A stretch of 15,982 bases of DNA from a virus. Lineage: Duplodnaviria; Heunggongvirae; Uroviricota; Caudoviricetes. The stretch lies in the IMG/VR virus record IMGVR_UViG_2737471818_000008. The stretch is one strand, 5' to 3'. Position numbers and translations under genes: made by a program. Shown here one piece after another: positions 1 through 15,982 of this stretch. Positions within the stretch are counted from its first letter, which is position 1. Each line of letters opens with the position of its first letter. A model generated the notes under the pieces. That model ran no database searches. It was given only the letters and a program-made list of their open reading frames with translations, and was not told where the DNA came from.

Positions 1-1254
1 ATGCTGGAACAAATGGGCATTGCCGCGAAGCAAGCCTCGTATAAATTAGCGCAACTCTCCAGCCGCGAAAAAAATCGCGTGCTGGAAAAAATCGCCGATG
101 AACTGGAAGCACAAAGCGAAATCATCCTCAACGCTAACGCCCAGGATGTTGCTGACGCGCGTGCCAATGGCCTTGGCGAAGCGATGCTTGACCGTCTGGC
201 ACTGACGCCCGCACGGCTGAAAGGCATTGCCGATGATGTGCGCCAGGTGTGTAACCTCGCCGATCCGGTGGGGCAGGTAATCGATGGCAGCGTACTGGAC
301 AGCGGCCTGCGTCTTGAGCGTCGTCGCGTACCGCTGGGGGTTATTGGCGTGATTTATGAAGCGCGCCCGAACGTGACGGTTGATGTCGCTTCGCTGTGCC
401 TGAAAACCGGTAATGCGGTGATCCTGCGCGGTGGCAAAGAAACGTGTCGCACTAACGCTGCAACGGTGGCGGTGATTCAGGACGCCCTGAAATCCTGCGG
501 CTTACCGGCGGGTGCCGTGCAGGCGATTGATAATCCTGACCGTGCGCTGGTCAGTGAAATGCTGCGTATGGATAAATACATCGACATGCTGATCCCGCGT
601 GGTGGCGCTGGTTTGCATAAACTGTGCCGTGAACAGTCGACAATCCCGGTGATCACAGGTGGTATAGGCGTATGCCATATTTACGTTGATGAAAGTGTAG
701 AGATCGCTGAAGCATTAAAAGTGATCGTCAACGCGAAAACTCAGCGTCCGAGCACATGTAATACGGTTGAAACGTTGCTGGTGAATAAAAACATCGCCGA
801 TAGCTTCCTGCCCGCATTAAGCAAACAAATGGCGGAAAGCGGCGTGACATTACACGCAGATGCAGCTGCACTGGCGCAGTTGCAGACAGGCCCTGCGAAG
901 GTGGTTGCTGTTAAAGCCGAAGAGTATGACGATGAGTTTCTGTCATTAGATTTGAACGTCAAAATCGTCAGCGATCTTGACGATGCCATCGCCCATATTC
1001 GTGAACACGGCACACAACACTCCGATGCGATCTTGACCCGCGATATGCGCAACGCCCAGCGTTTTGTTAACGAAGTGGATTCGTCCGCTGTTTACGTTAA
1101 CGCCTCTACGCGTTTTACCGACGGCGGCCAGTTTGGTCTGGGTGCGGAAGTGGCGGTAAGCACACAAAAACTCCACGCGCGTGGCCCAATGGGGCTGGAA
1201 GCACTGACCACTTACAAGTGGATCGGCATTGGTGATTACACCATTCGTGCGTAA
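1..1254 (+). CDS. proA: gamma-glutamyl phosphate reductase (glutamate-5-semialdehyde dehydrogenase), proline biosynthesis
   Basis: Full-length 417-aa ORF; I recognise the sequence as enterobacterial ProA over its whole length (aldehyde dehydrogenase fold, same length as E. coli ProA). GC-rich core-genome composition. Identity is from memory, not a search. Confidence 0.95.
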
Positions 1255-1368
1255 ATAAAACCGGGTGATGCAAAAGTAGCCATTTGATTCACAAGGCCAT
1301 TGACGCATCGCCCGGTTAGTTTTAACCTTGTCCACCGTGATTCACGTTCGTGAACATGTCCTTTCAGG

Positions 1369-1444
1369 GCCGATATAGCTCAGTTGGTAGAGCAGCGCAT
1401 TCGTAATGCGAAGGTCGTAGGTTCGACTCCTATTATCGGCACCA
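1369..1444 (+). tRNA. thrW: tRNA-Thr (anticodon CGU), thrW-like; probable integration target of the downstream element
   Basis: 76-nt cloverleaf read directly: acceptor stem GCCGATA/TATCGGC, D-arm GCTC-AGTTGGTA-GAGC, anticodon stem GCGCA/TGCGA with loop TTCGTAA (anticodon CGT), T-arm GTAGG-TTCGACT-CCTAT, 3' ACCA. Lies directly downstream of proA as thrW does in E. coli. Confidence 0.9.
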
Positions 1445-1535
1445 TTCTAACGTCTCCCCAAGTCTACTCAAGTATTTAAAAACCTCTTATAATCCGCATG
1501 TTAGCGCCCCTTTTAGTCTTTTGACGTCTACTTAA

Positions 1536-1607
1536 GTACCCCAAAATCTACAGTCAATTGGGGGTACTTTTGGGGGTATTTGCTGTTCGGTTTAGTGGAG
1601 GTACCCC
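1536..1607. promoter_or_regulatory. Cluster of GGGGTAC/GTACCCC repeats just upstream of int (candidate int promoter/operator or integrase arm-type sites)
   Basis: Seen directly: GTACCCC (1536-1542), GGGGGTAC (1560-1567), GGGGGTA (1572-1578), GGTACCCCC (1599-1607), in both orientations within about 70 bp and ending 4 bp before the int start codon. Confidence 0.4.
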
Positions 1608-1610
1608 CAA

Positions 1611-2825
1611 GTGAAACTCAATGCCCGTCAAATAGACACTGCCAAGCCAAAAGAGAAGGCTTACAAGCTGGCTGATGGTGGTGGTCTGTATCTCCTGGTA
1701 AAACCTAGTGGAGGAAAATACTGGCGCTTTAAATATCGTGTAGCTGGTAAAGAGAAGCTGTTAGCACTAGGTGTGTATCCTGAAGTTACCTTGGCTGATG
1801 CTCGTGCAAAACGTGAAGAAGCTAAAAGGGGTATCGCTGGGGGTATCGATCCGATGGAAGCGAAACGAGAGGAAAAGATTGCCCGGGAAACGCAGTTAAA
1901 CAATACCTTCAAAGATATTGCCCTTGAGTGGCACAGCAGCAAATTAAAAAAATGGTCTGCTGGTTATGCTTCAGATATCCTCGAAGCCTTCAACAAAGAT
2001 GTGTTCCCTTACATTGGCAAAAAACCAATCGCCGAAATCAAACCACTTGAACTTCTGAATGTGCTGCGACGCATCGAGGGGCGCGGTGCTACAGAAAAAG
2101 CCAAAAAAGTGAGGCAGCGGTGCGGGGAAGTTTTCCGCTATGCAATAGTCACTGGTCGCGCAGAGTATAACCCTGCCCCAGATCTTACTAGCGCGATGCA
2201 AGGCCATGAATCTAATCATTATCCTTTCCTCACAGCCAAAGAATTGCCTGATTTTTTCAAGGCATTGTCCAGTTACTCAGGAAGTGCATTGGTTGTTATG
2301 GCGGCTCGTCTACTGATTATCACTGGTTTGCGAACTGGCGAACTGCGCGGTGCATTATGGGATGAAATCGATCTCAACAAGGCTATCTGGGAGATACCTG
2401 CTTCACGGATGAAAATGCGTCGCCCTCATGTGGTGCCTTTGTCTAAGCAGGCTCTTTCTCTTATTGGGCAGATTAAAGAATTAACTGGTAATTATCCGCT
2501 TATGTTTCCCGGCCGTAATGATCCAAGGAAAACAATGAGCGAGGCTAGCATAAACCAAGTATTTAAACGCATCGGCTATAACGGAAAGGTTACTGGTCAT
2601 GGATTCCGGCACACCATGAGCACGATTTTACATGAGCAGGGCTATAACACCGCGTGGATAGAAACGCAGCTTGCACACGTTGATAAGAACTCAATTCGTG
2701 GCACGTACAATCATGCGCAATATCTGGACGGGCGGCGCGAGATGCTCCAGTGGTACGCCGACTATATGGATTCGCTCGAACATGGCGGTAACGTGGTGCA
2801 TGGCAAGTTCGGAAAATGTGGATGA
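1611..2825 (+). CDS. int: Site-specific tyrosine recombinase, P4-type integrase
   Basis: 404-aa ORF with GTG start and GGAG 10 nt upstream. N-terminal arm-binding region typical of P4-family integrases (AKPKEKAYKLADGGGLYLLVKPSGGKYWRFKYR). Catalytic signatures present: RTGELR, HGFRHT (H-x-x-R) and a C-terminal Tyr (RGTYNHAQY). Adjacent to a tRNA gene. Confidence 0.92.
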   Translation: MKLNARQIDTAKPKEKAYKLADGGGLYLLVKPSGGKYWRFKYRVAGKEKLLALGVYPEVTLADARAKREEAKRGIAGGIDPMEAKREEKIARETQLNNTFKDIALEWHSSKLKKWSAGYASDILEAFNKDVFPYIGKKPIAEIKPLELLNVLRRIEGRGATEKAKKVRQRCGEVFRYAIVTGRAEYNPAPDLTSAMQGHESNHYPFLTAKELPDFFKALSSYSGSALVVMAARLLIITGLRTGELRGALWDEIDLNKAIWEIPASRMKMRRPHVVPLSKQALSLIGQIKELTGNYPLMFPGRNDPRKTMSEASINQVFKRIGYNGKVTGHGFRHTMSTILHEQGYNTAWIETQLAHVDKNSIRGTYNHAQYLDGRREMLQWYADYMDSLEHGGNVVHGKFGKCG

Positions 2826-2953
2826 CTGGTTGCGTATACAGTAGTAGACTTTGAGCGACGAAAGAAAAGGCTGTGTCTAGGGTCGCTCCCGAAAATCCGT
2901 ACACCTCGACGGACTGGTACAGCCACTACAGTAGAGGACGCTGAGGTGTGCGT

Positions 2954-3751
2954 ATGATTGATATTCATGCCGAATTAAACGAATACAAAAAAGATTTTAT
3001 TTCTTTACGTGAATTTCTTGAGGTCGTGCTTAAGGTCGCTGGTGATGATTATGATGTTTCAGATGTCATAACTTGGATACTCAGGAGAATAAGCGGAGAA
3101 CATATCCGCCTGTACACAGTAAATGAATTTAAGCTGTTGGAATCTTTTTGTAACCCGTATCGGGATGAATTTGATTATGATGTTCTTTATAGAAATCTGA
3201 ATGCGGTTCGGAAACGTGGTTGTTTACCTGGTGAGAGGGATGAAAATGGTTTTCTGGTGTCCGGTTATTGGGAAGATCCCGAATTTGAGAACATTGGATT
3301 TATAAGGGGTGAAATTTTCGCAATTTTTCCCGATGTCCTTGACGCGTTAACGAAGCTGGAAGGCGCTAACTCTTCTGAAAATGACGAGGCACAAGGACGC
3401 GATATTGAAAAGAAAGAGTTGCGTACAGAGGATGATTTATTATCCCAAATCGCAATGCTGGAAAAAGAAAACGCAGAGTTAAGGGCAAGGATAGAGCAGT
3501 TAGAGCAAGAGCGCCCGATACACTTATATAAATACTGGGATAAAGACCCATTAGCTAAGGCTATTGAGATTAGAAACAGAGAGTGGGCCAATTACGATCC
3601 AGAAAATGATTTTGCCACCAGGGGAAATCAAGAAGCGATAACCAGGGAGCTTAAGCAGTGGGGGGCAAGTAATGCACTTGCAACGCTCATAGAGAGGACT
3701 GCCTGCCCTATTAACCGAGACAACAGCCAAAAGAACGCAAAGCCGGATTAA
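2954..3751 (+). CDS. Hypothetical protein with a coiled-coil segment; AT-rich orphan cargo gene between int and alpA
   Basis: ORF with ATG at 2954 and GAGG 7 nt upstream (the ORF track begins at GTG 2948). Visibly more AT-rich than the flanking int and alpA. Heptad-like stretch LLSQIAMLEKENAELRARIEQLEQER. No catalytic motif recognised. Confidence 0.6.
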   Translation: MIDIHAELNEYKKDFISLREFLEVVLKVAGDDYDVSDVITWILRRISGEHIRLYTVNEFKLLESFCNPYRDEFDYDVLYRNLNAVRKRGCLPGERDENGFLVSGYWEDPEFENIGFIRGEIFAIFPDVLDALTKLEGANSSENDEAQGRDIEKKELRTEDDLLSQIAMLEKENAELRARIEQLEQERPIHLYKYWDKDPLAKAIEIRNREWANYDPENDFATRGNQEAITRELKQWGASNALATLIERTACPINRDNSQKNAKPD

Positions 3752-3765
3752 CGCACCATACCGCA

Positions 3766-3910
3766 TACCCTGAGGATGATTTACTGTTACCCTGAGGGTA
3801 TTTTTTTATCTTCCCCGTCAATTTTACCATCACCCTTAGGGTAGATTTCCTCCCGATTACCATCACCCTTAGGGTTAATTTCCTTCCGGTAACCATTAGG
3901 CCTGAGGGTA
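3766..3910. repeat. Array of palindromic TACCCT-N-AGGGTA motifs including two 27-bp direct repeats, upstream of alpA
   Basis: Seen directly: TACCCTGAGG (3766-3775), TACCCTGAGGGTA (3788-3800), ACCCTTAGGGTA (3832-3844), ACCCTTAGGGT (3865-3875), CCTGAGGGTA (3901-3910). The 27-bp units TTACCATCACCCTTAGGGTAGATTTCC (3824-3850) and TTACCATCACCCTTAGGGTTAATTTCC (3857-3883) differ at 2 positions. Confidence 0.6.
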
Positions 3911-3978
3911 TGAAAATATTCGTTATTTCTGTGCCATGATTACCTCGTCAAATTGAGTAGACGTTATGAGGTAAATAT

Positions 3979-4176
3979 ATGTCAAATACGCTTATTCGTT
4001 TAACAGAAGTTCAGCGTAGAACTGGATATAGCAAGGCATGGATTTATCGCCTTATGGGGCAAGGTAAATTTCCTGCATCAGTTAAAATTGGCTCGCGAGC
4101 TATTGCTTTCGTTGAGAGTGAAATTGACGAGTGGATTAATCAGCGTATTGCGGAATCACGCGGAACAGCTACCTGA
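3979..4176 (+). CDS. alpA: AlpA-family phage transcriptional regulator / excisionase-like DNA-binding protein
   Basis: 65-aa ORF with GAGG 7 nt upstream of the ATG. LIRLTEVQRRTGYSKAWIYRLMGQGKFPASVKIGSRAIAFVESEIDEWI is the characteristic AlpA/Vis-type winged-HTH sequence found after int in P4-like and PICI elements. Confidence 0.85.
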   Translation: MSNTLIRLTEVQRRTGYSKAWIYRLMGQGKFPASVKIGSRAIAFVESEIDEWINQRIAESRGTAT

Positions 4177-4253: not shown

Positions 4254-5054
4254 ATGAAATTTCCAAAAACGCCCGTACAGGGGCGGGGCTTCGTTCGGCC
4301 TGAAAACCAGAATCTGCAAAATTTCGGCGAAATTATCCCGATTATTTCCGGCGTTATTGGCGGGAGTGAAACCACTATTGTTAGCGCCAGAGCGTTACAT
4401 AAGGCGTTAGGTGTAGGGCGCGTTTTCCGTTCGTGGATCAAGGGGCGCATTGAAGAATACGGGTTCACGGAAGGCGTGGATTATGAGGTTGTTGAATATT
4501 TGAGCCGACCCGATCCGGTGAGCGCAAAATCTCGCCAGCAAACCGCTCTTGAGTACATCATCACAGTGAACATGGCGAAAGAACTGGCGATGGTAGAACG
4601 CACCGAACAGGGGCGCGCCGTTCGTCAGTACTTCATCAAATGCGAGGAAGAGCTACACAAGGTTGCGCCTGTACGTTCCGCAGCGTTACGCCGGGAACTG
4701 AAAGCCCGTATCACAGTTGCCAGCTACTTTAAGCCAATGTGTGCCGCGCTGGAGGCGTACCGGGCTGAACTGGGTAAAAACACTCTACAGCACCACTACA
4801 CCACGGAAGCCAATATGCTGGCGCGTATCGTGCTGGGTGGCATGACTGCAAAACAGTGGGCGCAGGCGAACGGCATCACAGGCGAACCACGCGACCACAT
4901 GAGCACGTTGCAGCTTGAGCACCTTTCTTACCTTGAGCAGAGCAATATCACGCTGATTGAGTTAGGCCAGGACTACCACCAGCGGAAAGCTGAATTAATT
5001 CGCCTTTCGCAGCGTTGGTTAGCCCGTCGCATGGAGGAAAACAGCCATGTGTAA
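4254..5054 (+). CDS. Phage antirepressor-like protein (AntA/ORF6N-type N-terminal domain)
   Basis: 266-aa ORF with CAGGAG upstream. The N-terminal stretch SARALHKALGVGRVFRSWIKGRIEEYGFTEGVDYEVV matches the pattern I associate with AntA/ORF6N antirepressor N-domains. The domain assignment is from memory and needs an HMM search. Confidence 0.6.
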   Translation: MKFPKTPVQGRGFVRPENQNLQNFGEIIPIISGVIGGSETTIVSARALHKALGVGRVFRSWIKGRIEEYGFTEGVDYEVVEYLSRPDPVSAKSRQQTALEYIITVNMAKELAMVERTEQGRAVRQYFIKCEEELHKVAPVRSAALRRELKARITVASYFKPMCAALEAYRAELGKNTLQHHYTTEANMLARIVLGGMTAKQWAQANGITGEPRDHMSTLQLEHLSYLEQSNITLIELGQDYHQRKAELIRLSQRWLARRMEENSHV

Positions 5055-6348
5055 CGCTCTGACCGTTACAAAAAGAGAAAGCGCCCCGTTGCCGGAGCGC
5101 CTTTGTGAACGAATAGCCTACTGCGCCATATTGCTTACTGTCTACGGGGCAGATTATAGCGTTGTGGTCGCACAGAGTGAAGGCGCTGATCACCGTTTCT
5201 ACAGCACGCCGGAAATGCAGAATATTTTGCTGCAAAATGCCGTTGGTCACGCCGTCCGGAAAGCAAAAAATTTTGCTGGTGGTGCGACCGATACGATTTT
5301 GTCAGGTCGCCAGGTGCTGATTAATCTGATGTCTGATTTCGTTCTGGATAAAACAAAGGCGACCGCAGAGGGCCGCCAGTGGGAAAGCTACATACTTGAA
5401 CGCATCGCCAACAATGCCAGATTTGCGGCTGGTGGACAATGTGTCAGCTTTGCACCAATGACTCTATGTTTAACTGAGGGTCATTATGGTGAATATGCTG
5501 GCTTGCTGGTGGGCTATTCCTGCTCTTTAACATTGCCATGCCGCGATGTTTTCCAGGTATGCGATCCCATTTTTGTGCGCCTGTACTCTTTAAGGAATTG
5601 CTCAAGGGCAAAAGCACATGGCGCGAATCTTTCTGATTCATGCTCTATCTTTCTGCGCCGTCTTTTCCGTGCCGGTGATGGTGTATTGGTTGATTCTTTG
5701 TTGGTCATGGCGCTGCCCTGTAAAACGATGCACCGTAGTTCCTCACACCACGGCGCTGGTGATGGTTACTCCTGTTCTTTGGCCTTGCGGCGCTGGCGGT
5801 ATTCAACTTCTCGCTTTAATGCTGCTGTTACAAACTGCCCTGTACTTTCACCAGGCATTTTTACCGCCTCAACATTGTTCATAACTTCATGCGGAACCCT
5901 TGCCGCAACTGTTTGTGATTTTGCGTTTACTGCTTTTGTCGCCATGTTGTGTACCCCTTACAAAAAACAAATGCAGTATGCAGGAAAAAAAATAAGTGTT
6001 CAACACTTGACGTGTTTAACACCTGGACTTAAATTGGTGTTCAACACCTTGTTGATGCAAGGTGCAGAAACGACAACGCCCCGCAGTGGTGGCACACATG
6101 CAGGACGTCTAACCACCAACGATAGCAAGAGTATCGAGGTAGCTATGAGAAATCATACCACACACCCGCAAGGGCGGGACTCGCACAACCTGAATAAATA
6201 CATCTGGCGTTTTATCGCCCTGAGCACGGCACAACCGCGCGTAATTCACATCGAGGCCACCAGCGAACAGGAAGCACGCCAGCAATCTCCTGATGGCTGC
6301 GTGATGGTATTCGCCGCCCGTATTCGCCAGGAGGTGGAACATGTGTAA
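5047..6348 (+). CDS. Hypothetical protein; only the 5' ~140 codons look coding. The 433-codon ORF is probably a chimeric read-through across an antisense gene, an intergenic operator region and a separate in-frame small gene
   Basis: Start ATG overlaps the stop of the upstream gene (ATGTGTAA). Codon usage over about 5047-5470 looks like normal coding sequence. Beyond that the translation becomes Cys/Ser/Thr-rich and crosses an operator/promoter cluster at 5996-6047. No in-frame stop exists before 6348. Confidence 0.25.
   Translation: MCNALTVTKRESAPLPERLCERIAYCAILLTVYGADYSVVVAQSEGADHRFYSTPEMQNILLQNAVGHAVRKAKNFAGGATDTILSGRQVLINLMSDFVLDKTKATAEGRQWESYILERIANNARFAAGGQCVSFAPMTLCLTEGHYGEYAGLLVGYSCSLTLPCRDVFQVCDPIFVRLYSLRNCSRAKAHGANLSDSCSIFLRRLFRAGDGVLVDSLLVMALPCKTMHRSSSHHGAGDGYSCSLALRRWRYSTSRFNAAVTNCPVLSPGIFTASTLFITSCGTLAATVCDFAFTAFVAMLCTPYKKQMQYAGKKISVQHLTCLTPGLKLVFNTLLMQGAETTTPRSGGTHAGRLTTNDSKSIEVAMRNHTTHPQGRDSHNLNKYIWRFIALSTAQPRVIHIEATSEQEARQQSPDGCVMVFAARIRQEVEHV
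5766..5945 (-). CDS. Small ribbon-helix-helix-like DNA-binding protein (59 aa), candidate repressor of the divergent promoter; not in the supplied ORF track because it is under 60 aa
   Basis: Hand-translated from the minus strand: MATKAVNAKSQTVAARVPHEVMNNVEAVKMPGESTGQFVTAALKREVEYRQRRKAKEQE. AAGGGG lies 8 nt upstream of the ATG. The pattern is strand (TVAARV), helix, loop, helix. Three palindromic operators lie immediately upstream. Confidence 0.4.
   Translation of the reverse strand: MATKAVNAKSQTVAARVPHEVMNNVEAVKMPGESTGQFVTAALKREVEYRQRRKAKEQE
5996..6047. promoter_or_regulatory. Divergent promoter/operator region: three GTGTT(C/T)AACAC palindromes overlapping a sigma70-like promoter
   Basis: Seen directly: GTGTTCAACAC (5996-6006), GTGTTTAACAC (6012-6022), GTGTTCAACAC (6037-6047). 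TTGACG (6007-6012), a 17-bp spacer, then TAAATT (6030-6035) forms a plus-strand promoter with operators flanking the -35 and overlapping the spacer and the region just downstream of the -10. Confidence 0.55.
6145..6348 (+). CDS. Small protein (67 aa), possibly Icd-like host cell-division inhibitor family; first gene of the rightward operon
   Basis: In-frame ATG at 6145 with GAGG 6 nt upstream, downstream of the operator/promoter cluster. MRNHTTHPQGRDSHNLNKYIWRFIALSTAQPRVIHIEATSEQEARQQSPDGCVMVFAARIRQEVEHV resembles my recollection of Icd-like small proteins in P4-like prophages. Unverified. Confidence 0.4.
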   Translation: MRNHTTHPQGRDSHNLNKYIWRFIALSTAQPRVIHIEATSEQEARQQSPDGCVMVFAARIRQEVEHV

Positions 6349-6565
6349 TGCAACATGGCCTGATGCAGCGGTAGACGCTATCAAAACGCTGATGGATTCA
6401 CTTATTGAGATTTCTGCTATCGCTGGTGTGGCGCATAAACACGCAGCCAGAGAATCAGAATGCATCTCCCATTATTTAGCATTTGTGCAGCTAAAAGCCG
6501 ATCAGGCACTGGATAAGGCCGGAAAAATTATCATGGCTGATGTGCAGGAGGTGCACCATGCATAA
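6341..6565 (+). CDS. Hypothetical small protein (74 aa)
   Basis: ORF with AGGAGG 9 nt upstream of the ATG. Start overlaps the preceding stop (ATGTGTAA); first of a chain of overlapping small genes. Confidence 0.55.
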   Translation: MCNATWPDAAVDAIKTLMDSLIEISAIAGVAHKHAARESECISHYLAFVQLKADQALDKAGKIIMADVQEVHHA

Positions 6566-7346: not shown

Positions 7347-7637
7347 ATGAAAAAGAAAAATTCTGGCTTTACTGCCAGCGGCCTCTCTCGGCCTGAAATC
7401 CGCCCCGGTGATATTTTCCGGGACACCAGACGCGGGGGACGGGTGGTTATTCGTCACGTTACGCCAGGCAATATCACCTACCGCCGTGAGGCTTACGAAT
7501 ATGACTGCGTAATGCCGCGCCGTCAGTTTGATCGTGATTTTATTCTGGTGGAAAACAAACAACAGGCAGTGGCGAGACGTGCAGCCACGAATATTAAAAA
7601 AATCCGGGCAATGTTGGTTGCGGGAGGTAAGAAGTGA
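7347..7637 (+). CDS. Hypothetical basic protein (96 aa)
   Basis: ORF immediately after the previous stop; its stop overlaps the primase GTG start (GTGA). Confidence 0.6.
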   Translation: MKKKNSGFTASGLSRPEIRPGDIFRDTRRGGRVVIRHVTPGNITYRREAYEYDCVMPRRQFDRDFILVENKQQAVARRAATNIKKIRAMLVAGGKK

Positions 7638-9439
7638 AAAACGCACCGAGTCTAAAATATCAGCCGAAGGATAAATTCACTGAGGTAATCATTTTTGCCG
7701 GGACGGATGCTTACGCCCATGCTCAACACTGGATTGAAAGTGAAGGACGAAAACACGGCGATAACGTGCCTCCTGTTTACCTGGGGCCAAAGCAACTGGC
7801 AGACCTGGCGAATATCCGCATTATTGACGAGAAACGCCGTTTTGCGCGTGTCTATATCGCGGGGGAGATAGAGCCAATCCAGATCAATACTATCGCTGAA
7901 AAGCTGGCGCTGGCTGGCGTACAGGAGGCGAAATTATACAAAGGTATCACCGACCAGGAACCGGAGAACTGGCGCGACTACCTGCAACGGATCCGCGAAC
8001 AGGCTGAGCACGGGGAAGTTTCAGTGATGAAATTAGCTACAAAAAATAGTGGTCTACCCAAGCCTGCATTAAATCAGATGGGAGCCAGCCAGAGAGGGGA
8101 GGTGTTACTTGAACATTATGGAGGAGCACTGGCGATAAATGATGATTCTGATGTAGTTCACCATTACAACGGAATTGTTTGGGAGCCTGTATCTGATAAA
8201 GAACTCCAGCGGTCTATGGCGAAGATTTTTATTGATGCCGAAATTAGTTATTCGCAAAACGCCATTAAATTTGCCGTAGAGACAATGAAATTGAGTCTAC
8301 CTGTTATGGGGGGAGCGGACAGAAATCTTATTGGGTTCAGTAACGGTGTTTTTGATATCAGGACAGGAAATTTTCGGGAACACAACAAAAATGACTGGTT
8401 GTTAAATGCCAGTGAATTACCGTTCAGCCCGCCAGAAGAGGGGGAAACGCTGGCAACACATGCGCCGAATTTCTGGAAGTGGTTGCGTCGTTCGGTGGCG
8501 GATAATGCTCGTAAAGCGGATCGCGTACTGGCGGCATTATTCATGGTACTGGCGAACCGGTACGACTGGCAGTTATTCCTTGAGGTAACGGGGCCGGGCG
8601 GAAGCGGTAAAAGTGTGATGGCGGAGATTTGTACCATGCTGGCGGGTAAGGCCAATACAGTATCGGCGAGCATGAAGGCGCTGGAAGACGCGAGGGAACG
8701 AGCGTTAGTGGTAGGATATTCTCTGATTATCATGCCTGACATGACCCGCTACGCAGGTGATGGTGCTGGGATTAAGGCCATTACAGGCGGTGACAAGGTG
8801 GCTATCGATCCGAAACACAAAGCGCCCTATTCCACGCGCGTTCCTGCGGTAGTGCTGGCAGTAAACAATAATGCCATGTCATTCAGCGACCGTAGTGGGG
8901 GGATCTCGCGTCGACGAGTGATATTTAATTTCTCTGAGGTTGTACCAGAGAACGAACGCGATCCGATGCTGGCGAAAAAGATAGAAGGGGAACTGGCCGT
9001 AGTGATTCGCCATTTGCTTACACGATTTGCCGACCAGGACGAAGCGAAAAGACTACTTTATGAGCAGCAAAAATCAGAAGAAGCACTGTTAATAAAGCGT
9101 GAAGGTGATTCGCTGGTGGACTTCTGCGGTTATCTGATGTCGTTGGTTAAATGTGAGGGGATGATAGTAGGTAATGCAGAAATAGTGCCATTTAGCCCGA
9201 GGCGATATCTGTATCATGCTTATTTGGCTTATATGTCTGCGCATGGTCTGGGAAAACCGGTATCACTGACACGCTTTGGTACAGATATGCCAGGGGCAAT
9301 GGCTGAGTACGGAAAGGAGTACAAGCGGGCTAAATGCACTAAAGGTCCAGATAAAGGGCGAACGATCACAAATGTTCTGTTAGATAAAGATGCTGATGGA
9401 TGGTTACCAGCAGCGGCAGGCATTAACGACAGAACATGA
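7634..9439 (+). CDS. Phage/plasmid primase, P4 family (primase-helicase with C-terminal NTPase domain)
   Basis: 601-aa ORF with GTG start and GGGAGG upstream. Walker A GPGGSGKS and a downstream Walker-B-like acidic motif; overall architecture typical of P4 alpha-like / PICI pri-rep proteins. An iteron array follows immediately. Confidence 0.88.
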   Translation: MKNAPSLKYQPKDKFTEVIIFAGTDAYAHAQHWIESEGRKHGDNVPPVYLGPKQLADLANIRIIDEKRRFARVYIAGEIEPIQINTIAEKLALAGVQEAKLYKGITDQEPENWRDYLQRIREQAEHGEVSVMKLATKNSGLPKPALNQMGASQRGEVLLEHYGGALAINDDSDVVHHYNGIVWEPVSDKELQRSMAKIFIDAEISYSQNAIKFAVETMKLSLPVMGGADRNLIGFSNGVFDIRTGNFREHNKNDWLLNASELPFSPPEEGETLATHAPNFWKWLRRSVADNARKADRVLAALFMVLANRYDWQLFLEVTGPGGSGKSVMAEICTMLAGKANTVSASMKALEDARERALVVGYSLIIMPDMTRYAGDGAGIKAITGGDKVAIDPKHKAPYSTRVPAVVLAVNNNAMSFSDRSGGISRRRVIFNFSEVVPENERDPMLAKKIEGELAVVIRHLLTRFADQDEAKRLLYEQQKSEEALLIKREGDSLVDFCGYLMSLVKCEGMIVGNAEIVPFSPRRYLYHAYLAYMSAHGLGKPVSLTRFGTDMPGAMAEYGKEYKRAKCTKGPDKGRTITNVLLDKDADGWLPAAAGINDRT

Positions 9440-9473
9440 TACGAAATTTATAAGTTGAAACTTAAAAGTAGAC

Positions 9474-9806
9474 GGTTGGTAGACAGATACACTTAACCCT
9501 CTACCAACCATCTACTAATTAATGTTTTGAATTATATAGGTATTTTTAATGTGGTAGAGAGGTGGACAGTTTATTTTATATTTCTAAACCACGGGGGTAT
9601 CTAAAAATAGATAGTTATGGGTTCATTTTTAAAATTTTTCTTTTAACTATCTACACTGTCTACCATTTAGTAAAAATCATTAATTATCAATGTATTAATA
9701 CGGTAGAGAGTTGGTAGACAGTTTGCAGATTGTTTTTTGTTATGTGTGAACAACATTAAATAAATCAATCAATTATATCGATAGACAGTTGGTAGACAGT
9801 TGTAAC
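9474..9806. repeat. Iteron array, probable replication origin: about 8-9 copies of GGTAGA(C/G)AG(TT) in both orientations in an AT-rich segment
   Basis: Seen directly: GGTTGGTAGACAG (9474-9486) with inverted partner CTACCAACCA (9501-9510); GTGGTAGAGAGGTGGACAGTT (9551-9571); ACTGTCTACCA (9655-9665, inverted); CGGTAGAGAGTTGGTAGACAGTT (9701-9723); tandem TAGACAGTTGGTAGACAGTT (9782-9801). Directly downstream of the primase gene. Confidence 0.65.
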
Positions 9807-9807
9807 G

Positions 9808-10350
9808 ATGGGGCAAAGCATGACTAAGCTGACCATTAACAGAAAACCGAAAGGCATTTACGGCACGCCGCAGAAAACGACGCAGGCGGCACAGGAGCAG
9901 GATAAAACCACGTCGGCGCATAAAGTGATGCCCGGTAACCAGAAAGCGCAGCAGAAGCCCACAGGGGCGACACCGTGGCGGCATATGACCAAGCGCCAGC
10001 GCAAAAACCGCAGGCGCATTAACCGCCTCACTGAGTTGTGGCCTGAATTATTCAGCCGGGAAGCACCGAAGCCGCTTAAGGTGGGGATATTCGACGACCT
10101 GATGCAGGATCTCGCCGTCAGGGGGCTGGCATTCGGTCTAGGGGCATTGCGTGCGACGCTGGCATCTTATGCACAGTGTCCGCGCTATTACCGCGCCTTA
10201 ATGGCTGGTGGGGTACGCTACGACCTGAAAGGCCAGCCGTGCGGCGAGGTGACACCACAGGAACAACAGGACGCAGAAACGCGGCTGGTGGCGCTGAATG
10301 AGAAGCGCAAACGTCAGCGCCGGGTAGCAAAGGAGAAAACAGGCGCATGA
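9808..10350 (+). CDS. ProQ/FinO-domain RNA-binding protein (RNA chaperone family)
   Basis: The segment ELFSREAPKPLKVGIFDDLMQDL...YAQCPRYYRALMAGGVRYDLKGQPCGEVT aligns by eye with the E. coli ProQ N-terminal FinO-like domain (PLKIGIFQDL...RVDLDGNPCGEL). Basic, low-complexity N-terminus. The start may be ATG 9808 or ATG 9820. Confidence 0.8.
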   Translation: MGQSMTKLTINRKPKGIYGTPQKTTQAAQEQDKTTSAHKVMPGNQKAQQKPTGATPWRHMTKRQRKNRRRINRLTELWPELFSREAPKPLKVGIFDDLMQDLAVRGLAFGLGALRATLASYAQCPRYYRALMAGGVRYDLKGQPCGEVTPQEQQDAETRLVALNEKRKRQRRVAKEKTGA

Positions 10351-10634
10351 TTCACGACAGCAAAGCGGAAGCACTGGAAGCGCGTGGTCTGTACCGGAGA
10401 GCGGCGGCGCGGTGGGCTGAGGTCATCATGCTGGCGAATGATGACAAGGCACGGGAACAGGCGGCAAAACGTCGCGCGGAATGTATCCGCAAGGCAGCAC
10501 GCCCACCAGCAAGGCAGGATAATTTCGGGGAGATGCGCGAAACCATCAGCCGGGCACATGCCGGGATGGGATTACATCAGCCCAATGGTAAGGCATTCAG
10601 GAAATACCCTGGATCGAAAAATTGCAGTCAGTGA
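10347..10634 (+). CDS. Small regulatory protein, possibly a PerC-family transcriptional activator
   Basis: 95-aa ORF translationally coupled to the upstream gene (ATGA overlap). The N-terminal AEALEARGLYRRAAARWAEVI resembles the conserved N-terminus I recall for PerC-family proteins. Family assignment is from memory. Confidence 0.6.
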   Translation: MIHDSKAEALEARGLYRRAAARWAEVIMLANDDKAREQAAKRRAECIRKAARPPARQDNFGEMRETISRAHAGMGLHQPNGKAFRKYPGSKNCSQ

Positions 10635-10639
10635 CGGAG

Positions 10640-10663
10640 GCCGGGATTTTTCCCGGCTTTTTT
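10640..10663 (+). terminator. Rho-independent terminator after the ProQ/PerC-like gene pair
   Basis: GCCGGGA-TTTT-TCCCGGC forms a 7-bp GC-rich stem with a 4-nt loop, followed by TTTTTT; begins 6 nt after the stop codon. Confidence 0.75.
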
Positions 10664-10675
10664 GTGCCAGTAAAA

Positions 10676-10710
10676 AGCCCGCAGCCAGAAGTGTTGCGGG
10701 CTTTGTTTTT
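10676..10710. terminator. Second hairpin terminator, possibly bidirectional
   Basis: AGCCCGCA...TGCGGGCT forms an 8-bp stem, flanked by an A-run upstream and TTGTTTTT downstream. Confidence 0.55.
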
Positions 10711-11048: not shown

Positions 11049-11627
11049 ATGCCAGCAAGCAAAGAAGATTTGCGATTAAAACTGATGGAGGTGGTTAACG
11101 CTCTGTCAGAGTCGCAGGGCAGCACTCCGCAGGAGATTATCGAAATTCTGAATGCGATCCCCGCACAGGATTTCATAAAAGAGGATAACGCTAATCAAAA
11201 CATCGTCGCGTCAGTCGAAGATGAATCCTCACTGGCAGAAGCCCAGGCTAAAGCAGATTCCGCATACAGCAATATGGGCCGTCGCGCTCCAGCCCCGTTT
11301 GCTGGTGAAAAGTCGATGGATTACCGCAAGCGTGCATTAATTGGTGCACAGAAGCTGGCTAAAAAATTCAGTGATGTGGATATTCGTTCCGTTTCAGATT
11401 CTGCAACGCTGGCGGTGCTGGAAGATCAGATTTACCAGGCTGCAAAAGACAGTGTTCAGTGGGCTGTGGAAAATACGCCGGGCTATTTGCGTAAAACCGT
11501 AAGAATGGATGAAGCCGGACGGCGGATTACTGAATATCAGGGGGATCCGAATAACTGGCTTAGTGCTTTCAAAATCCCTCCCCGTCGCCTGGTCAAAATT
11601 AACGTTGCAAGCCTCGCGGGGGCATGA
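11049..11627 (+). CDS. Hypothetical acidic protein (192 aa); candidate morphogenesis/packaging-interference protein
   Basis: ATG at 11049 with GAGAGG upstream (the ORF track start 11040 is probably too early). Normal coding composition. No similarity to P4 Psu, Delta or Sid recognised. Confidence 0.65.
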   Translation: MPASKEDLRLKLMEVVNALSESQGSTPQEIIEILNAIPAQDFIKEDNANQNIVASVEDESSLAEAQAKADSAYSNMGRRAPAPFAGEKSMDYRKRALIGAQKLAKKFSDVDIRSVSDSATLAVLEDQIYQAAKDSVQWAVENTPGYLRKTVRMDEAGRRITEYQGDPNNWLSAFKIPPRRLVKINVASLAGA

Positions 11628-11691: not shown

Positions 11692-12363
11692 ATGCTTTTA
11701 ACAGAAATTGAGGCGGCGAAGCAGATTCGGGACGGACAGCTACCGTCGCCTTATCAGTTTTCCAACATGTGGCTGGTTAACCTGCGTATCACAGGAACCG
11801 GAATGGCCTACCGCGCAGAAGAAAAAGAATTTGTCTGGCGTTCACCGCAAACTTATCTCAATCCGCAGTTCCTGGAACGTTGCGCCGGAGTACCCGTAAT
11901 TATCGACCATCCCGAAAGCAAAACCCTTGAAGACGTGGGCGAACGGTCGCGCATTATTGGCACCGTCATGTTGCCGTATATTCGCGGTGACGAGGTGTGG
12001 GGCGTATGCCGGATTTACGGGCAGGAAATCATCGATTACATCCAGAAAGCACGGGGGGAGGTATCCACCAGTCCGTCGGTTGTGTTTTGTGGTGCGTCCG
12101 GTGGGGCTGAAGTTCCTGATGTAATGGGCGAGGACAATTTTTTTATTGAGGGTACGCCATTTCTTATCGATCACGTTGCACTCGTACCGTTGGGCGTATG
12201 GGATAAGGATGGGAAACCATCGGGTGTGGAGGTAACAACGCCGACAGCAGAAGAGCAGCTTGCCGGAATGGTCCGGGACGTTATTGATGCGGCCTGCAAG
12301 CCAGCCCTGGAAAAACTGGAAGAAATATCCGGGCGGCTGGCTCAACTGGAAAAAGAAGGGTGA
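11692..12363 (+). CDS. Hypothetical protein (223 aa); weak prohead-protease-like motifs
   Basis: Clean ORF. Contains IIDHPES, FCGASGGAE and LIDHVAL, which could correspond to a His/Ser protease arrangement. Speculative. Confidence 0.65.
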   Translation: MLLTEIEAAKQIRDGQLPSPYQFSNMWLVNLRITGTGMAYRAEEKEFVWRSPQTYLNPQFLERCAGVPVIIDHPESKTLEDVGERSRIIGTVMLPYIRGDEVWGVCRIYGQEIIDYIQKARGEVSTSPSVVFCGASGGAEVPDVMGEDNFFIEGTPFLIDHVALVPLGVWDKDGKPSGVEVTTPTAEEQLAGMVRDVIDAACKPALEKLEEISGRLAQLEKEG

Positions 12364-14233: not shown

Positions 14234-15982
14234 GTGAAAATATCTTTTTTTGGCGTAAATAACTTTAGGACAATATCAGGTGGCATTGGTAATAATAGAA
14301 TAATATTTAAAGATAGCAATACGCTTTTCATTTACGGGGCAAACAATGCTGGAAAATCAACTTATTTAAAAGCATATATGTTTTTTTACAGTAATGAAAA
14401 ACCTATCATTGATGATTTCTTTAAACGAGACGACAATAATTCTATTGAGTTTGAATTAGAAGTTCAACTTGATGACTTGGATAAAGAAAGAATAGAAGCC
14501 AAAGCACCGAAGCAAAAGGAAAGTTATAAGAAGTATTTAAATAATGATTTTATTAGAATTAAGAAAGTATGGAGTAAAAATGGAACAAGAATAGAGGATA
14601 AAAATTATACTTATGATTATAGTAAAGGAGATAGCGGCGAGTATGATGAAGTTGGATATGCAACGATTGGTTTGCATCAGGTCTTCCAATCTTGTTTGCC
14701 AAAACCTGTATTTATAAAGGCTATGCCAACAGAGGAAGAAGCTAAGAAGATTCTTAATGAAATCCTAAAGATGATGGCTGAAAATACACTTAAAACATCT
14801 GATCTTGATGAATTAAAAGCAGCTCAGAATAAAATAAAAGAATTACAAGACAAAATGTATGATCCAGAATTGATTGAGACCTATCAGAATTCAGTTAACG
14901 GATACTTTAACAAGATATTCGGTGATACTGCTATATGCTTCAAAGATCAAAAAGATAGGGTTGTTTGGACGGAGAATAAGCTTGGCAGAGATTTTGAAAT
15001 TGAGTTTATGAAAAAAAATAGCCAAGGGGAGTTTGATGGCAATATCCCTTCAAGTTATAGCAGTGTAGGTCATGGAACTATTAGGACTGCAATATTTACA
15101 TTATTATTGATGAGAGATGTAGCAGAGCGTTTTGAAAGAAGGCTTGGACGTAAGGATTACATGGTTCTGTTTGAGGAGCCTGAGCTATTTCTCTATCCTA
15201 GAATGGTGAAGGAACTTCGTGAATTGATTTATCAGGTGAGCACTGAAGACCTTCCATATCAAGTACTTTGTGCCTCACATTCATCTTCCATGATAGATCT
15301 TTCAAAGCCTAAATCTTCGATAATACGATTAGTTAATAATTCTACTGGAACTAAATCATATCAAATTAATGATCAATTTTTGAAGGATGCAAAAGGCATT
15401 GCTACAAATGCTGAACTTAAACAAGAAATGTATGAAGTTTTGAGGTTTAACCCTTATATTTGTGAATCATTCTACGCTGATGAGGTGCTTCTGATTGAGG
15501 GGCCAACAGAAGAAATAATATGTAGAGCTTTTTTACAAGAAACCCCATCAGATAAATCTATATTCGTATTGAACTGTGGTACGGTTAATAACATTCCTTT
15601 TTATCAAAAAATCTTCTCAAGGTTTAATATAAAATATCATGTGATCTGTGATACAGATAAAGCAGAAATAGTTACCGTAGATCAATCTGGCAATGCAGAT
15701 TTTGATTCTGGAATACAGAAAACAATTTCAGAACAGTATAGGAATGATTGTACTGCAATGAATGGTAATATAGGACTACTTCGAACTCATAACATTACAT
15801 TTGAACCTGCTCATCAGGATGTTAGTATTCCTGACTTTTTGAGATTTGTTGATTGCGGTGATAGAAGCAAACCATTTAATGCAAACTTGTACTGGAAGGA
15901 TATTTTAAGGCCAAATATATCACATCAAGATATAAATAAAGTGCCTATAATTAAGTATTTGAATGAAATAATAGCACATTAA
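14234..15982 (+). CDS. OLD-family ATP-dependent nuclease (N-terminal ABC-type ATPase plus C-terminal TOPRIM domain); class 1 OLD or Gabija GajA-like; candidate anti-phage defence protein
   Basis: 582-aa ORF with GTG start and AAGGAAA upstream, in strongly AT-rich DNA. Motifs read directly: Walker A GANNAGKST (near 14336-14362), Walker B MVLFEEPELF (near 15161-15190), H-loop-like ASHS, TOPRIM glutamate LLIEGPTEE (near 15491-15517) and DxD ICDTDK (near 15644-15661). Size matches P2 Old and GajA. Confidence 0.85.
   Translation: MKISFFGVNNFRTISGGIGNNRIIFKDSNTLFIYGANNAGKSTYLKAYMFFYSNEKPIIDDFFKRDDNNSIEFELEVQLDDLDKERIEAKAPKQKESYKKYLNNDFIRIKKVWSKNGTRIEDKNYTYDYSKGDSGEYDEVGYATIGLHQVFQSCLPKPVFIKAMPTEEEAKKILNEILKMMAENTLKTSDLDELKAAQNKIKELQDKMYDPELIETYQNSVNGYFNKIFGDTAICFKDQKDRVVWTENKLGRDFEIEFMKKNSQGEFDGNIPSSYSSVGHGTIRTAIFTLLLMRDVAERFERRLGRKDYMVLFEEPELFLYPRMVKELRELIYQVSTEDLPYQVLCASHSSSMIDLSKPKSSIIRLVNNSTGTKSYQINDQFLKDAKGIATNAELKQEMYEVLRFNPYICESFYADEVLLIEGPTEEIICRAFLQETPSDKSIFVLNCGTVNNIPFYQKIFSRFNIKYHVICDTDKAEIVTVDQSGNADFDSGIQKTISEQYRNDCTAMNGNIGLLRTHNITFEPAHQDVSIPDFLRFVDCGDRSKPFNANLYWKDILRPNISHQDINKVPIIKYLNEIIAH

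What the first reader, a model, noticed from the sequence alone, without database searches (positions are those of the whole stretch)
9808..10634. Satellite-encoded ProQ/FinO-domain RNA chaperone coupled to a PerC-like regulator, next to the origin
The ProQ/FinO domain is clear by eye (PLKVGIFDDL and RYDLKGQPCGEV align with E. coli ProQ). FinO-family proteins usually partner with a structured antisense RNA, which suggests RNA-based control of replication or host/helper gene expression by this element. The downstream gene overlaps it (ATGA), looks PerC-like, and could let the island reprogram host or helper transcription. The pair is terminated by two strong hairpins, marking it as a discrete module.
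Basis: partly seen in the sequence, partly recalled or inferred. Interest (0 to 1): 0.6.

Follow-up and report, generated by a model that had tools for sequence, protein, structure and literature searches.

The report
FinO-like RNA chaperone plus PerC cassette
A small phage-parasite island in E. coli carries, just after its replication origin, two overlapping genes for a FinO/ProQ-type RNA-binding protein and a PerC/Pch-type regulator; the pair is a real, common and portable cassette already annotated in databases, but what the RNA-binding half does has not been studied.

Summary
It overlaps by ATGA a 95-aa PerC-family gene (10347-10634; Pfam 111.6 bits). Two intrinsic terminators follow, and a 368-nt, 71% A+T iteron region precedes. 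The host element is a PICI-type satellite at tRNA-Thr, with an integrase 97% identical to that of the characterised PICI EcCIMP1.

In 167 informative related loci, PerC, a PerC remnant or a reversed PerC sits beside the FinO-like gene in 114. Both genes are under purifying selection (dN/dS about 0.25).

The idea that the protein controls replication through an origin antisense RNA is not supported. Nearly identical copies sit behind at least five iteron types and three replication-protein families, often with an ssb gene in between, and no conserved RNA element was found.

PerC homologues in related islands alter host virulence, curli and flagellar expression, and one such operon starts at the origin edge.

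Best reading: a portable regulatory cassette, with an RNA 3'-end-binding chaperone whose ligand is unknown, plus a host-directed PerC regulator. It is a new member of known kinds, of moderate interest.

The parts
9820..10350 (+). FinO/ProQ-domain protein gene, 176 aa. Residues 1-57 are a basic, disordered N-terminal region; residues 58-145 are the FinO domain; residues 146-175 are a long basic C-terminal helix.
   Evidence: Pfam PF04352, 84.6 bits. PDB sequence hits to ProQ, FinO, NMB1681 and RocC. AF2 model and Foldseek hits. Start codon conserved across 14 family members and used by RefSeq. dN/dS 0.25. pI 10.6.
10347..10634 (+). PerC/Pch-family small regulator gene, 95 aa. Its ATG overlaps the FinO-like gene's TGA (ATGA at 10347-10350).
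   Evidence: Pfam PF06069, 111.6 bits, full length. 51% identical to Sakai PchE and 46% to EcCIMP1_025. The AF2 N-terminal half is a three-helix TPR-like bundle with no HTH. dN/dS 0.27.
10639..10663 (+). Intrinsic terminator 1: GCCGGGA / TCCCGGC stem, TTTT loop, T6 tail. It starts 5 nt after the perC stop codon.
   Evidence: Sequence; RNA fold. Conserved in the window's lineage, with a similar hairpin after perC in other lineages.
10672..10710 (+). Intrinsic terminator 2: 12-bp stem flanked by A5 on the 5' side and TTTGTTTTT on the 3' side, so it looks bidirectional.
   Evidence: Terminator scan; fold. One G-C to A-U compensatory change at the stem base in L108.
9440..9807 (.). Origin-like intergenic region: 71% A+T, with GGTAGACAG-type iterons in direct and inverted orientation. 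The last iteron pair lies at 9781-9802, directly before the FinO-like gene.
   Evidence: Repeat finder. The iteron sequence changes with the replication-protein allele across about 90 related loci. Conserved blocks are seen in the alignment of 13 loci.
7634..9439 (+). Primase-helicase (D5_N, DUF5906, Pox_D5; P4-family primase C-terminal domain), the satellite's replication protein.
   Evidence: Pfam and NCBIfam.
3979..4176 (+). AlpA-family regulator; in Gram-negative PICIs this is the activator of the island's induction cycle.
   Evidence: Pfam PF05930, 69.4 bits; its role is taken from PMC6092414.
1611..2825 (+). Tyrosine integrase next to tRNA-Thr(CGT) at 1369-1444, downstream of proA.
   Evidence: Pfam; ARAGORN; 97% identical to the EcCIMP1 integrase.

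Best explanation
The two genes form a portable, translationally coupled regulatory cassette carried by enterobacterial PICI-type phage satellites, placed at the 3' end of the replication module (pri-ori-[ssb]-proQ-like-perC-terminator).

Shown here:
- The first product is a minimal FinO-family protein: a basic disordered N-terminus, a FinO domain and a basic C-terminal helix, with no ProQ Tudor-like domain. It keeps the residues that in ProQ and RocC hold the base of a terminator hairpin and its 3' end.
- The second product is a PerC/Pch-family protein.
- The pair is conserved, under purifying selection, and moves between satellites with unrelated replication and packaging modules.

Inferred:
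- The FinO-like protein binds the 3' terminator hairpins of one or a few RNAs and either protects them or helps them pair. Its own two-terminator 3' UTR is the nearest candidate ligand. Because the cassette is independent of the replicon, the relevant RNAs are probably host, helper-phage or generic island transcripts rather than an origin-specific antisense RNA.
- The PerC-like protein changes host transcription (adhesion, motility or LEE-type regulons), as its tested relatives PchE and EcCIMP1_025 do. It probably works through protein contacts rather than its own DNA-binding domain.
- Expression probably comes from a promoter at the origin edge in the integrated state, as mapped for the homologous ECs1586-ssb-pchE operon of O157 Sp7. 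Read-through from the AlpA-activated replication operon after helper induction is a possible second source.
For: - Domain identity.
- Conserved RNA-contact positions: the equivalents of ProQ K35, R58, Y70, R80 and D82 are K87, R111, Y123, R133 and D135, invariant or nearly so in 14 diverse family members. The role of these residues is taken from published ProQ/RocC work, recalled from my own knowledge.
- Synteny: of 167 informative loci, 96 have ProQ-like directly followed by PerC, 14 have ProQ-like, an inserted gene and a PerC remnant, and 4 have PerC followed by ProQ-like.
- Portability: FinO-like proteins 95-99% identical to this one occur with iterons CTGTCTACC, ACTGTTCAC, AAAGTGAGG, GGGTAGACA and CATATCCCG, and with D5-type, DUF927 and AAA_25 replication proteins. 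The downstream modules also vary.
- Selection: dN/dS 0.25 and 0.27.
- Prevalence: FinO-like DNA is present in 1175 of 5426 complete E. coli genomes, always chromosomal.
- PerC homologue functions and the mapped transcription start: PMC6265319, PMC7369912 and PMC11773190; Sp7 anatomy.
- PerC model is TPR-like without an HTH.
Against: - No RNA ligand was identified.
- The tandem terminators are not conserved in all lineages.
- No promoter above chance was found upstream of the gene.
- The Sp7 operon used for the promoter analogy lacks the FinO-like gene, and its iterons lie upstream rather than downstream of the -10 element.
- PerC also occurs without the FinO-like gene (Sp7, EcCIMP1, a Klebsiella circular element). 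The FinO-like gene also occurs without an intact PerC: in cf-PICIs it is followed by an unrelated 82-aa protein, the commonest E. coli allele has a disrupted perC, and one clade lies in other islands. The two functions may therefore be independent.
- The locus sample was chosen by similarity to this protein, so it over-represents close relatives.
Confidence: 0.55

Rival explanations
1. Replication control. The FinO-like protein would stabilise, or promote pairing of, an antisense RNA made in or near the origin, setting primase/Rep expression or origin firing, as FopA-Inc-repZ does on IncI plasmids.
For: The gene always lies in the replication module, downstream of pri and the iterons and often beside ssb. 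Known plasmid FinO relatives control replication or transfer through antisense RNAs (PMC9977716). The last iteron pair abuts the gene's ribosome-binding region.
Against: - Near-identical proteins are combined with at least 5 iteron specificities and 3 unrelated replication-protein families.
- ssb often separates the gene from the origin.
- No Rfam hit in the window's origin region or the proQ-like and perC genes, no terminator inside the origin, and promoter-like sites below the shuffled expectation.
- No region of suppressed synonymous change in either gene.
Confidence: 0.1
2. Helper-directed function. The FinO-like protein would bind helper-phage RNAs (for example antisense or 3'-UTR RNAs of the lysis-lysogeny or late circuits), and PerC would act on helper promoters, to time induction or to interfere with the helper.
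For: The cassette travels independently of the replicon and the packaging module, as expected for something aimed at an outside target. It occurs in classical PICIs and in capsid-forming PICIs. PICIs are known to carry interference functions (PMC6092414).
Against: No direct evidence. PerC relatives that have been tested act on host regulons. The pchE operon is expressed without induction and goes down on SOS induction.
Confidence: 0.15
3. Two-subunit post-transcriptional regulator. PerC would be a protein partner of the FinO-like chaperone, and the pair would act together on RNA, for example on the sRNA-controlled csgD and flhDC leaders.
For: Overlapping, translationally coupled genes in at least 74 loci. 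The PerC model is a TPR-like helical bundle, a protein-binding fold, with no DNA-binding motif. PchE targets csgD and flhDC, which from my own knowledge are hubs of sRNA control.
Against: Each gene is common without the other. PchE and EcCIMP1_025 work when expressed alone. PerC alleles are far more diverged than their FinO-like neighbours (median dS 0.83 against 0.23), which indicates recombination between the two genes.
Confidence: 0.1
4. Chaperone for a P4-type CI/C4 immunity RNA of the satellite.
For: Two related islands with the FinO-like gene (L010, L013) carry isrK and a C4 antisense RNA just upstream of icd.
Against: The window and most relatives tested have no C4 or isrK match, even in a relaxed scan. 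The window instead has a divergent YlcI/YnfO-like gene with three palindromic operator-like sites over the operon promoter.
Confidence: 0.05

Closest known systems
FinO (F-like plasmids) and FopA (IncI plasmid pCol1B9)
   Same: Both are mobile-element-encoded minimal FinO-domain proteins with basic extensions and no Tudor-like domain. FinO (1dvo) is the best structural match, and NCBIfam's best hit is the FinO subfamily.
   Different: About 30% identity and below the FinO family cut-off (64.7 against 136 bits). This protein is encoded on a phage satellite, not a plasmid. No cognate antisense RNA equivalent to FinP or Inc was found. It is paired with PerC.
ProQ (E. coli/Salmonella global RNA chaperone)
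   Same: The FinO domain is shared, with the K35, R58, Y70 and R80 equivalents conserved. By inference it would also prefer terminator 3' ends.
   Different: No linker or C-terminal Tudor-like domain. It scores below the ProQ equivalog cut-off (57.9 against 127 bits). It is an accessory, horizontally moving gene.
PchE (ECs1588) of E. coli O157:H7 Sakai prophage-like element Sp7 / CP-933C
   Same: A PerC-family protein (51% identical) in the same slot of a PICI-type element, downstream of the primase, iterons and ssb, and co-transcribed with its upstream neighbours.
   Different: Sp7 has no FinO-like gene. The PchE effects (csgD down, flhDC/fliC up) have not been tested for this allele.
EcCIMP1, a PICI of E. 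coli MP1 (helper phage Kapi1), and its PerC-like EcCIMP1_025
   Same: Same tRNA-Thr/proA insertion site and a 97% identical integrase. It has the AlpA, AntA, Icd and DUF4222 set, and its PerC-family protein is 46% identical.
   Different: EcCIMP1 has a different primase (TOPRIM/DUF927) and no FinO-like gene. Its perC sits at the far end of the island rather than after the origin.
PerC (EPEC EAF plasmid) / PchABC and the ANR family (Aar)
   Same: Pfam PerC membership; a small basic helical protein. There is a weak resemblance to ANR (E=0.024), as also noted for EcCIMP1_025.
   Different: Not tested for LEE activation. Group 3 relatives do not activate LEE1. The ANR score is below its cut-off (14.4 against 32 bits).

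Membership tests
ProQ/FinO family (Pfam PF04352) | Sequence match to the FinO-domain profile above the curated threshold | tested here: met
   84.6 bits against a cut-off of 27, profile positions 4-108 of 109.
ProQ/FinO family (Pfam PF04352) | FinO-domain fold | tested here: met
   In the AF2 model, residues 58-175 have pLDDT of 86-96 per 10-residue block from residue 61 (70 for residues 51-60, 63 for residues 171-176). Foldseek hits: 1dvo E=8e-7; RocC 7rgt target-normalised TM 0.70-0.84; NMB1681.
ProQ/FinO family (Pfam PF04352) | Conserved basic/aromatic residues of the RNA 3'-end and hairpin-base binding face (ProQ K35, R58, Y70, R80) | tested here: met
   K87, R111, Y123 and R133 align to them and are invariant or nearly invariant in alignment A1. 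ProQ R62 is not conserved (Ala). The functional role of these residues is taken from the literature, recalled from memory.
ProQ/FinO family (Pfam PF04352) | Binds structured RNA (terminator hairpins) and affects its stability or pairing | not testable with these tools
   Needs EMSA or CLIP. No cognate RNA was found in silico.
ProQ proper (NCBIfam NF003434 equivalog) | Equivalog score, and FinO domain plus linker plus C-terminal Tudor-like domain | tested here: not met
   57.9 bits against a cut-off of 127. The protein ends about 30 residues after the FinO domain.
FinO proper (NCBIfam NF010317) | Subfamily score; encoded in a conjugative tra region with finP/traJ | tested here: not met
   64.7 bits against a cut-off of 136. 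All 1658 E. coli matches are chromosomal and none is on a plasmid.
PerC family (Pfam PF06069) | Full-length match above the curated threshold | tested here: met
   111.6 bits against 22.6, profile positions 1-89 of 90. 13 invariant positions are shared with 28 homologues.
PerC family (Pfam PF06069) | Regulates LEE1/ler or other host promoters | not testable with these tools
   Only homologues have been tested: PchE (PMC6265319, PMC7369912) and EcCIMP1_025 (PMC11773190).
ANR (AraC negative regulator) family, NF033650 | Score above the curated cut-off | tested here: not met
   14.4 bits against 32, E=0.024.
Gram-negative PICI (phage-inducible chromosomal island) | Integrase at a specific att site, AlpA regulator, pri/rep followed by an iteron origin, about 10-18 kb, no tail or lysis genes | tested here: met
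   tRNA-Thr, int, AlpA, primase and iterons. TerS-like and prohead-protease-like genes only. Integrase 97% identical to that of EcCIMP1. The right end of the island lies beyond the window.
Gram-negative PICI (phage-inducible chromosomal island) | Induced, replicated and packaged by a helper phage | not testable with these tools
   Needs experiment; shown only for relatives (PMC6092414, PMC11773190).
P4-like satellite | psu-delta-sid capsid-size module and CI/C4 immunity RNA | tested here: not met
   No such genes among the ORFs or Pfam hits. No C4 RNA. Only the primase C-terminal domain is of the P4 family.

The most novel reading that the evidence does not exclude
PerC-family 'transcriptional activators' have no recognised DNA-binding domain and are predicted here to be TPR-like. 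They may work with, or through, a FinO-domain RNA chaperone. On this reading the satellite cassette is a two-part post-transcriptional controller that rewires host sRNA-regulated hubs (csgD, flhDC, ler), and the satellite FinO clade, present in about a fifth of E. coli genomes, is a second, horizontally supplied ProQ-like layer of RNA regulation.
Probability: 0.1. Interest if true: 0.7.

Novelty: new member of a known kind. Interest (0 to 1): 0.4.

Why it matters
FinO/ProQ proteins are one of the three major families of bacterial RNA chaperones and are thought to have arisen on mobile elements. The characterised mobile-element members (FinO, FopA) are plasmid-borne. Here a distinct clade sits in a fixed slot of phage satellites, is present in about 22% of complete E. 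coli genomes (up to 9 copies per genome), and is under purifying selection. Within the searchable literature it has only been listed, never studied.

Its usual partner, PerC/Pch, affects virulence, biofilm and motility regulons in EHEC and Citrobacter models by an unknown mechanism. If the FinO-like protein binds host or helper RNAs, satellites would be delivering RNA-level regulators alongside defence systems. That would affect how strain-to-strain differences in sRNA networks and virulence regulation are interpreted. As it stands the finding is a well-annotated but functionally open cassette, not a new kind of system.

Tried and rejected
- Rfam scans of the whole window (E up to 1) and of 4900-6500 (E up to 10) found no RNA family in or next to the cassette. 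The only hit there (ncr1175, 32 bits against 60) is just the tandem terminators.
- int-alpA RNA (2870-2937) as the ligand: the motif is present in only some FinO-bearing islands (window, L002, L011) and absent from L008, L010 and L013, so there is no consistent association.
- C4/isrK immunity RNA: present in L010 and L013 only.
- Synonymous-site conservation scan across both genes in 73 distinct sequences: no trough, range 0.23-0.60.
- Promoter scan: 13 sites against 18 expected by shuffling, and none directly upstream of the gene.
- The 82-aa protein that follows the FinO-like gene in capsid-forming PICIs (phrog_1957) is not a diverged PerC: hhalign probability 0.1%.
- The 138-aa protein that follows it in the commonest allele is Ant-like (phrog_63) and was inserted into the 5' end of perC.
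- PADLOC: neither protein matches a known defence system.
- Genome-contig scan: only 3 loci, because the patterns were too narrow.
- I first took the window to be E. coli EC11. The cassette is 100% identical there, but EC11's left flank differs, and the window matches an IMG/VR contig of the same length.
- Porter et al. 2005 (PMC543544) could not be read.

Full report
**What is there.** The window begins with proA and tRNA-Thr(CGT). These are followed on the plus strand by:
- a tyrosine integrase (1611-2825);
- an int-alpA RNA motif;
- an AlpA-family regulator (3979-4176);
- an AntA/B antirepressor;
- an Icd-like operon ending in DUF4222 and a D5/P4-type primase-helicase (7634-9439);
- a 368-nt A+T-rich iteron region;
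- the two genes of the finding;
- small genes related to TerS and to a prohead protease;
- an Old-family nuclease that runs off the end of the window.

No tail or lysis genes are present. The integrase is 97% identical to that of EcCIMP1, an experimentally mobilised PICI inserted at the same proA/tRNA-Thr site (PMC11773190). The element is therefore a Gram-negative PICI-type satellite, not a P4-type one: it has no psu/delta/sid genes and no C4 RNA. The window matches IMG/VR contig UViG_2737471870_000008, which has the same length. The cassette with its flanks is 100% identical in E. coli EC11, where RefSeq already calls the genes 'ProQ/FINO family protein' and 'PerC family transcriptional regulator'.

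**Check of the observation.** Every factual element holds.
- The FinO/ProQ domain scores 84.6 bits in Pfam. The predicted structure (pLDDT about 90 over residues 58-175) has FinO, NMB1681 and RocC as its best matches.
- The PerC match is full length at 111.6 bits.
- The ATGA overlap, the two intrinsic terminators and the iteron region are all in the sequence.
- One correction: the conserved start is ATG 9820 (MTKLTINRK), used by RefSeq and by 13 of 14 diverse homologues, with a GGGG run 6 nt upstream. The start is probably not 9808.
- Both genes evolve under purifying selection, with dN/dS 0.25 and 0.27 over more than 1200 sequence pairs each.

**Distribution and synteny.**
- FinO-like DNA of this clade is found in 1175 of 5426 complete E. 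coli genomes, at up to 9 places per genome and always on the chromosome.
- I collected 173 related loci from metagenomes, IMG/VR and genomes and classified their neighbours with phmmer.
- Of the 167 loci with enough downstream sequence, 96 have the FinO-like gene followed at once by PerC, mostly with the ATGA overlap. Another 14 have an Ant-like gene inserted into the 5' end of perC, leaving a perC remnant plus a terminator; this group includes the commonest E. coli allele. Four have the reversed order, PerC then ProQ-like.
- 26 are capsid-forming PICIs in which an unrelated 82-aa protein follows the FinO-like gene.
- 27 belong to another island type with neither a primase nor PerC.
- The sample was picked by similarity to this protein, so these proportions describe the clade and not all satellites.
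- PerC also occurs in the same slot without the FinO-like gene: O157 Sakai Sp7 (ECs1586-ssb-pchE), a Klebsiella 22.9-kb circular element, and elsewhere in EcCIMP1.

**The cassette is portable.** The intergenic region after the replication gene always carries 4-9 iterons, and the iteron sequence changes with the replication-protein allele. This supports calling it the origin. However, FinO-like proteins 95-99% identical to the window's sit behind at least five different iterons (CTGTCTACC, ACTGTTCAC, AAAGTGAGG, GGGTAGACA, CATATCCCG). They also sit behind three unrelated replication proteins: the D5-type primase, the DUF927 primase and an AAA_25 helicase. An ssb gene may or may not lie in between. 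The modules downstream of perC vary as well. Even within the pair, PerC alleles are much more diverged than their FinO-like neighbours (median dS 0.83 against 0.23).

**Search for an RNA partner.** Nothing was found.
- Rfam gives no hit in or around the cassette other than the terminators themselves.
- Promoter-like sites in the island are below the shuffled expectation, and none lies just upstream of the gene.
- There is no terminator inside the origin.
- Synonymous variation shows no trough along either gene.
- The tandem terminators are conserved only within the window's lineage, although other lineages often have one terminator after perC.
- The int-alpA motif and the C4/isrK RNAs are present in only some FinO-bearing islands.

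Together with the portability result, this argues against an origin-specific antisense RNA. It leaves three candidate ligand classes: the cassette's own 3' UTR, other island transcripts, or host or helper RNAs.

**What relatives tell us about function and expression.** In O157:H7, PchE (51% identical) represses csgD/curli and biofilm and raises flhDC/fliC and motility. It is expressed at a low steady level without induction and falls several-fold on SOS induction (PMC6265319, PMC7369912). Its transcript starts 10 nt upstream of ECs1586, so ECs1586, ssb and pchE form one operon. In the Sakai sequence this start lies at the right edge of the TAACCCGCA iteron field, just after a TATATATATAAA stretch. 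EcCIMP1_025 (46% identical) silences LEE1 in Citrobacter rodentium.

By analogy, the window's cassette may be transcribed from the origin edge in the integrated state. Binding of the replication protein to the flanking iterons could shut that promoter on induction. Both points are inferences, and the arrangement of iterons relative to the putative -10 element differs here.

**Comparison with what is known, and novelty.** FinO-family proteins on mobile elements and PerC homologues on PICIs are both established (PMC9977716, PMC6092414). A 2026 survey lists a ProQ/FinO-like gene and a PerC gene in two different Enterobacter PICIs without comment (PMC13612085), and a Vibrio study mentions a ProQ/FinO-like regulator on episomal satellites. 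I found no paper that studies the satellite FinO clade or notes its coupling to PerC, though the library is incomplete. The finding is a new, well-supported member of known kinds, with an open and testable function.

**Verdict.**
- Interest is moderate (0.4).
- The most novel reading not excluded is that PerC proteins act with or through the FinO-like chaperone at the RNA level. I put this at about 10%.

Noticed in passing
window 2870-2937 (+): Match to the Rfam int-alpA RNA motif (RF02996, 45.5 bits against 35.8) between int and the next gene. In this copy the U-run that follows the outer stem in the family consensus is missing.
   Followed up: partly
window about 3760-3915 (+): Several copies of ACCCTGAGGGT / CACCCTTAGGGT(A/T)(G/A)ATTTCCT upstream of alpA (3979). 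They could be regulator-binding repeats in the alpA promoter region.
   Followed up: no
window 5998-6050: Three palindromes GTGTT(C/T)AACAC overlap a promoter-like TTGACG-17-TAAATT (6007-6035). They lie between a divergent YlcI/YnfO-like gene (5766-5945, minus strand) and the icd-like-to-primase operon. This looks like a protein-repressor operator, where some relatives instead have a C4 RNA.
   Followed up: partly
window 5078-5760 (-) and ORF 5047-6348 (+): Three minus-strand terminator-like hairpins (5756-5730, 5377-5358, 5103-5078) and small minus-strand ORFs lie downstream of the YlcI-like gene. The 433-aa plus-strand ORF over this region is probably spurious; RefSeq calls a pseudogene there.
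   Followed up: no
window 14234-15982 (+): Old-family ATP-dependent nuclease (PADLOC Old, E=5e-63), cut off by the window end. This is a typical anti-phage cargo gene at the distal end of a satellite.
   Followed up: partly
window 11049-11627 and 11692-12363 (+): Two adjacent genes match different parts of one 545-aa phage family (phrog_6216: positions 409-544 and 115-328) in permuted order. The second gene also matches DUF2213 and a head maturation protease weakly.
   Followed up: no
L010 6236-6424; L013 3225-3413: Related FinO-bearing islands carry isrK and a C4 antisense RNA (the P1/P4-type immunity RNA) just upstream of the icd-like gene. The window does not.
   Followed up: partly
L001 (E. 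coli EC11) about 1-3100: In EC11 the otherwise matching island is preceded by pinE, DUF4145 and hypothetical genes, and only the att-core sequence GCACCATTCTAACG... is present, not proA/tRNA-Thr. This suggests tandem islands at the site.
   Followed up: partly
L002 8479-9160: In the commonest E. coli allele, a 138-aa Ant-like gene (phrog_63) is inserted into the 5' end of perC. This leaves a frame-disrupted perC remnant and its terminator, while the FinO-like gene stays intact.
   Followed up: yes
L183 (O157 Sakai Sp7) 25740-26104: The published transcription start of the ECs1586-ssb-pchE operon falls at the edge of the TAACCCGCA iteron field of this capsid-forming PICI. The promoter is therefore embedded in the origin, which could explain why it is repressed on induction.
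   Followed up: partly
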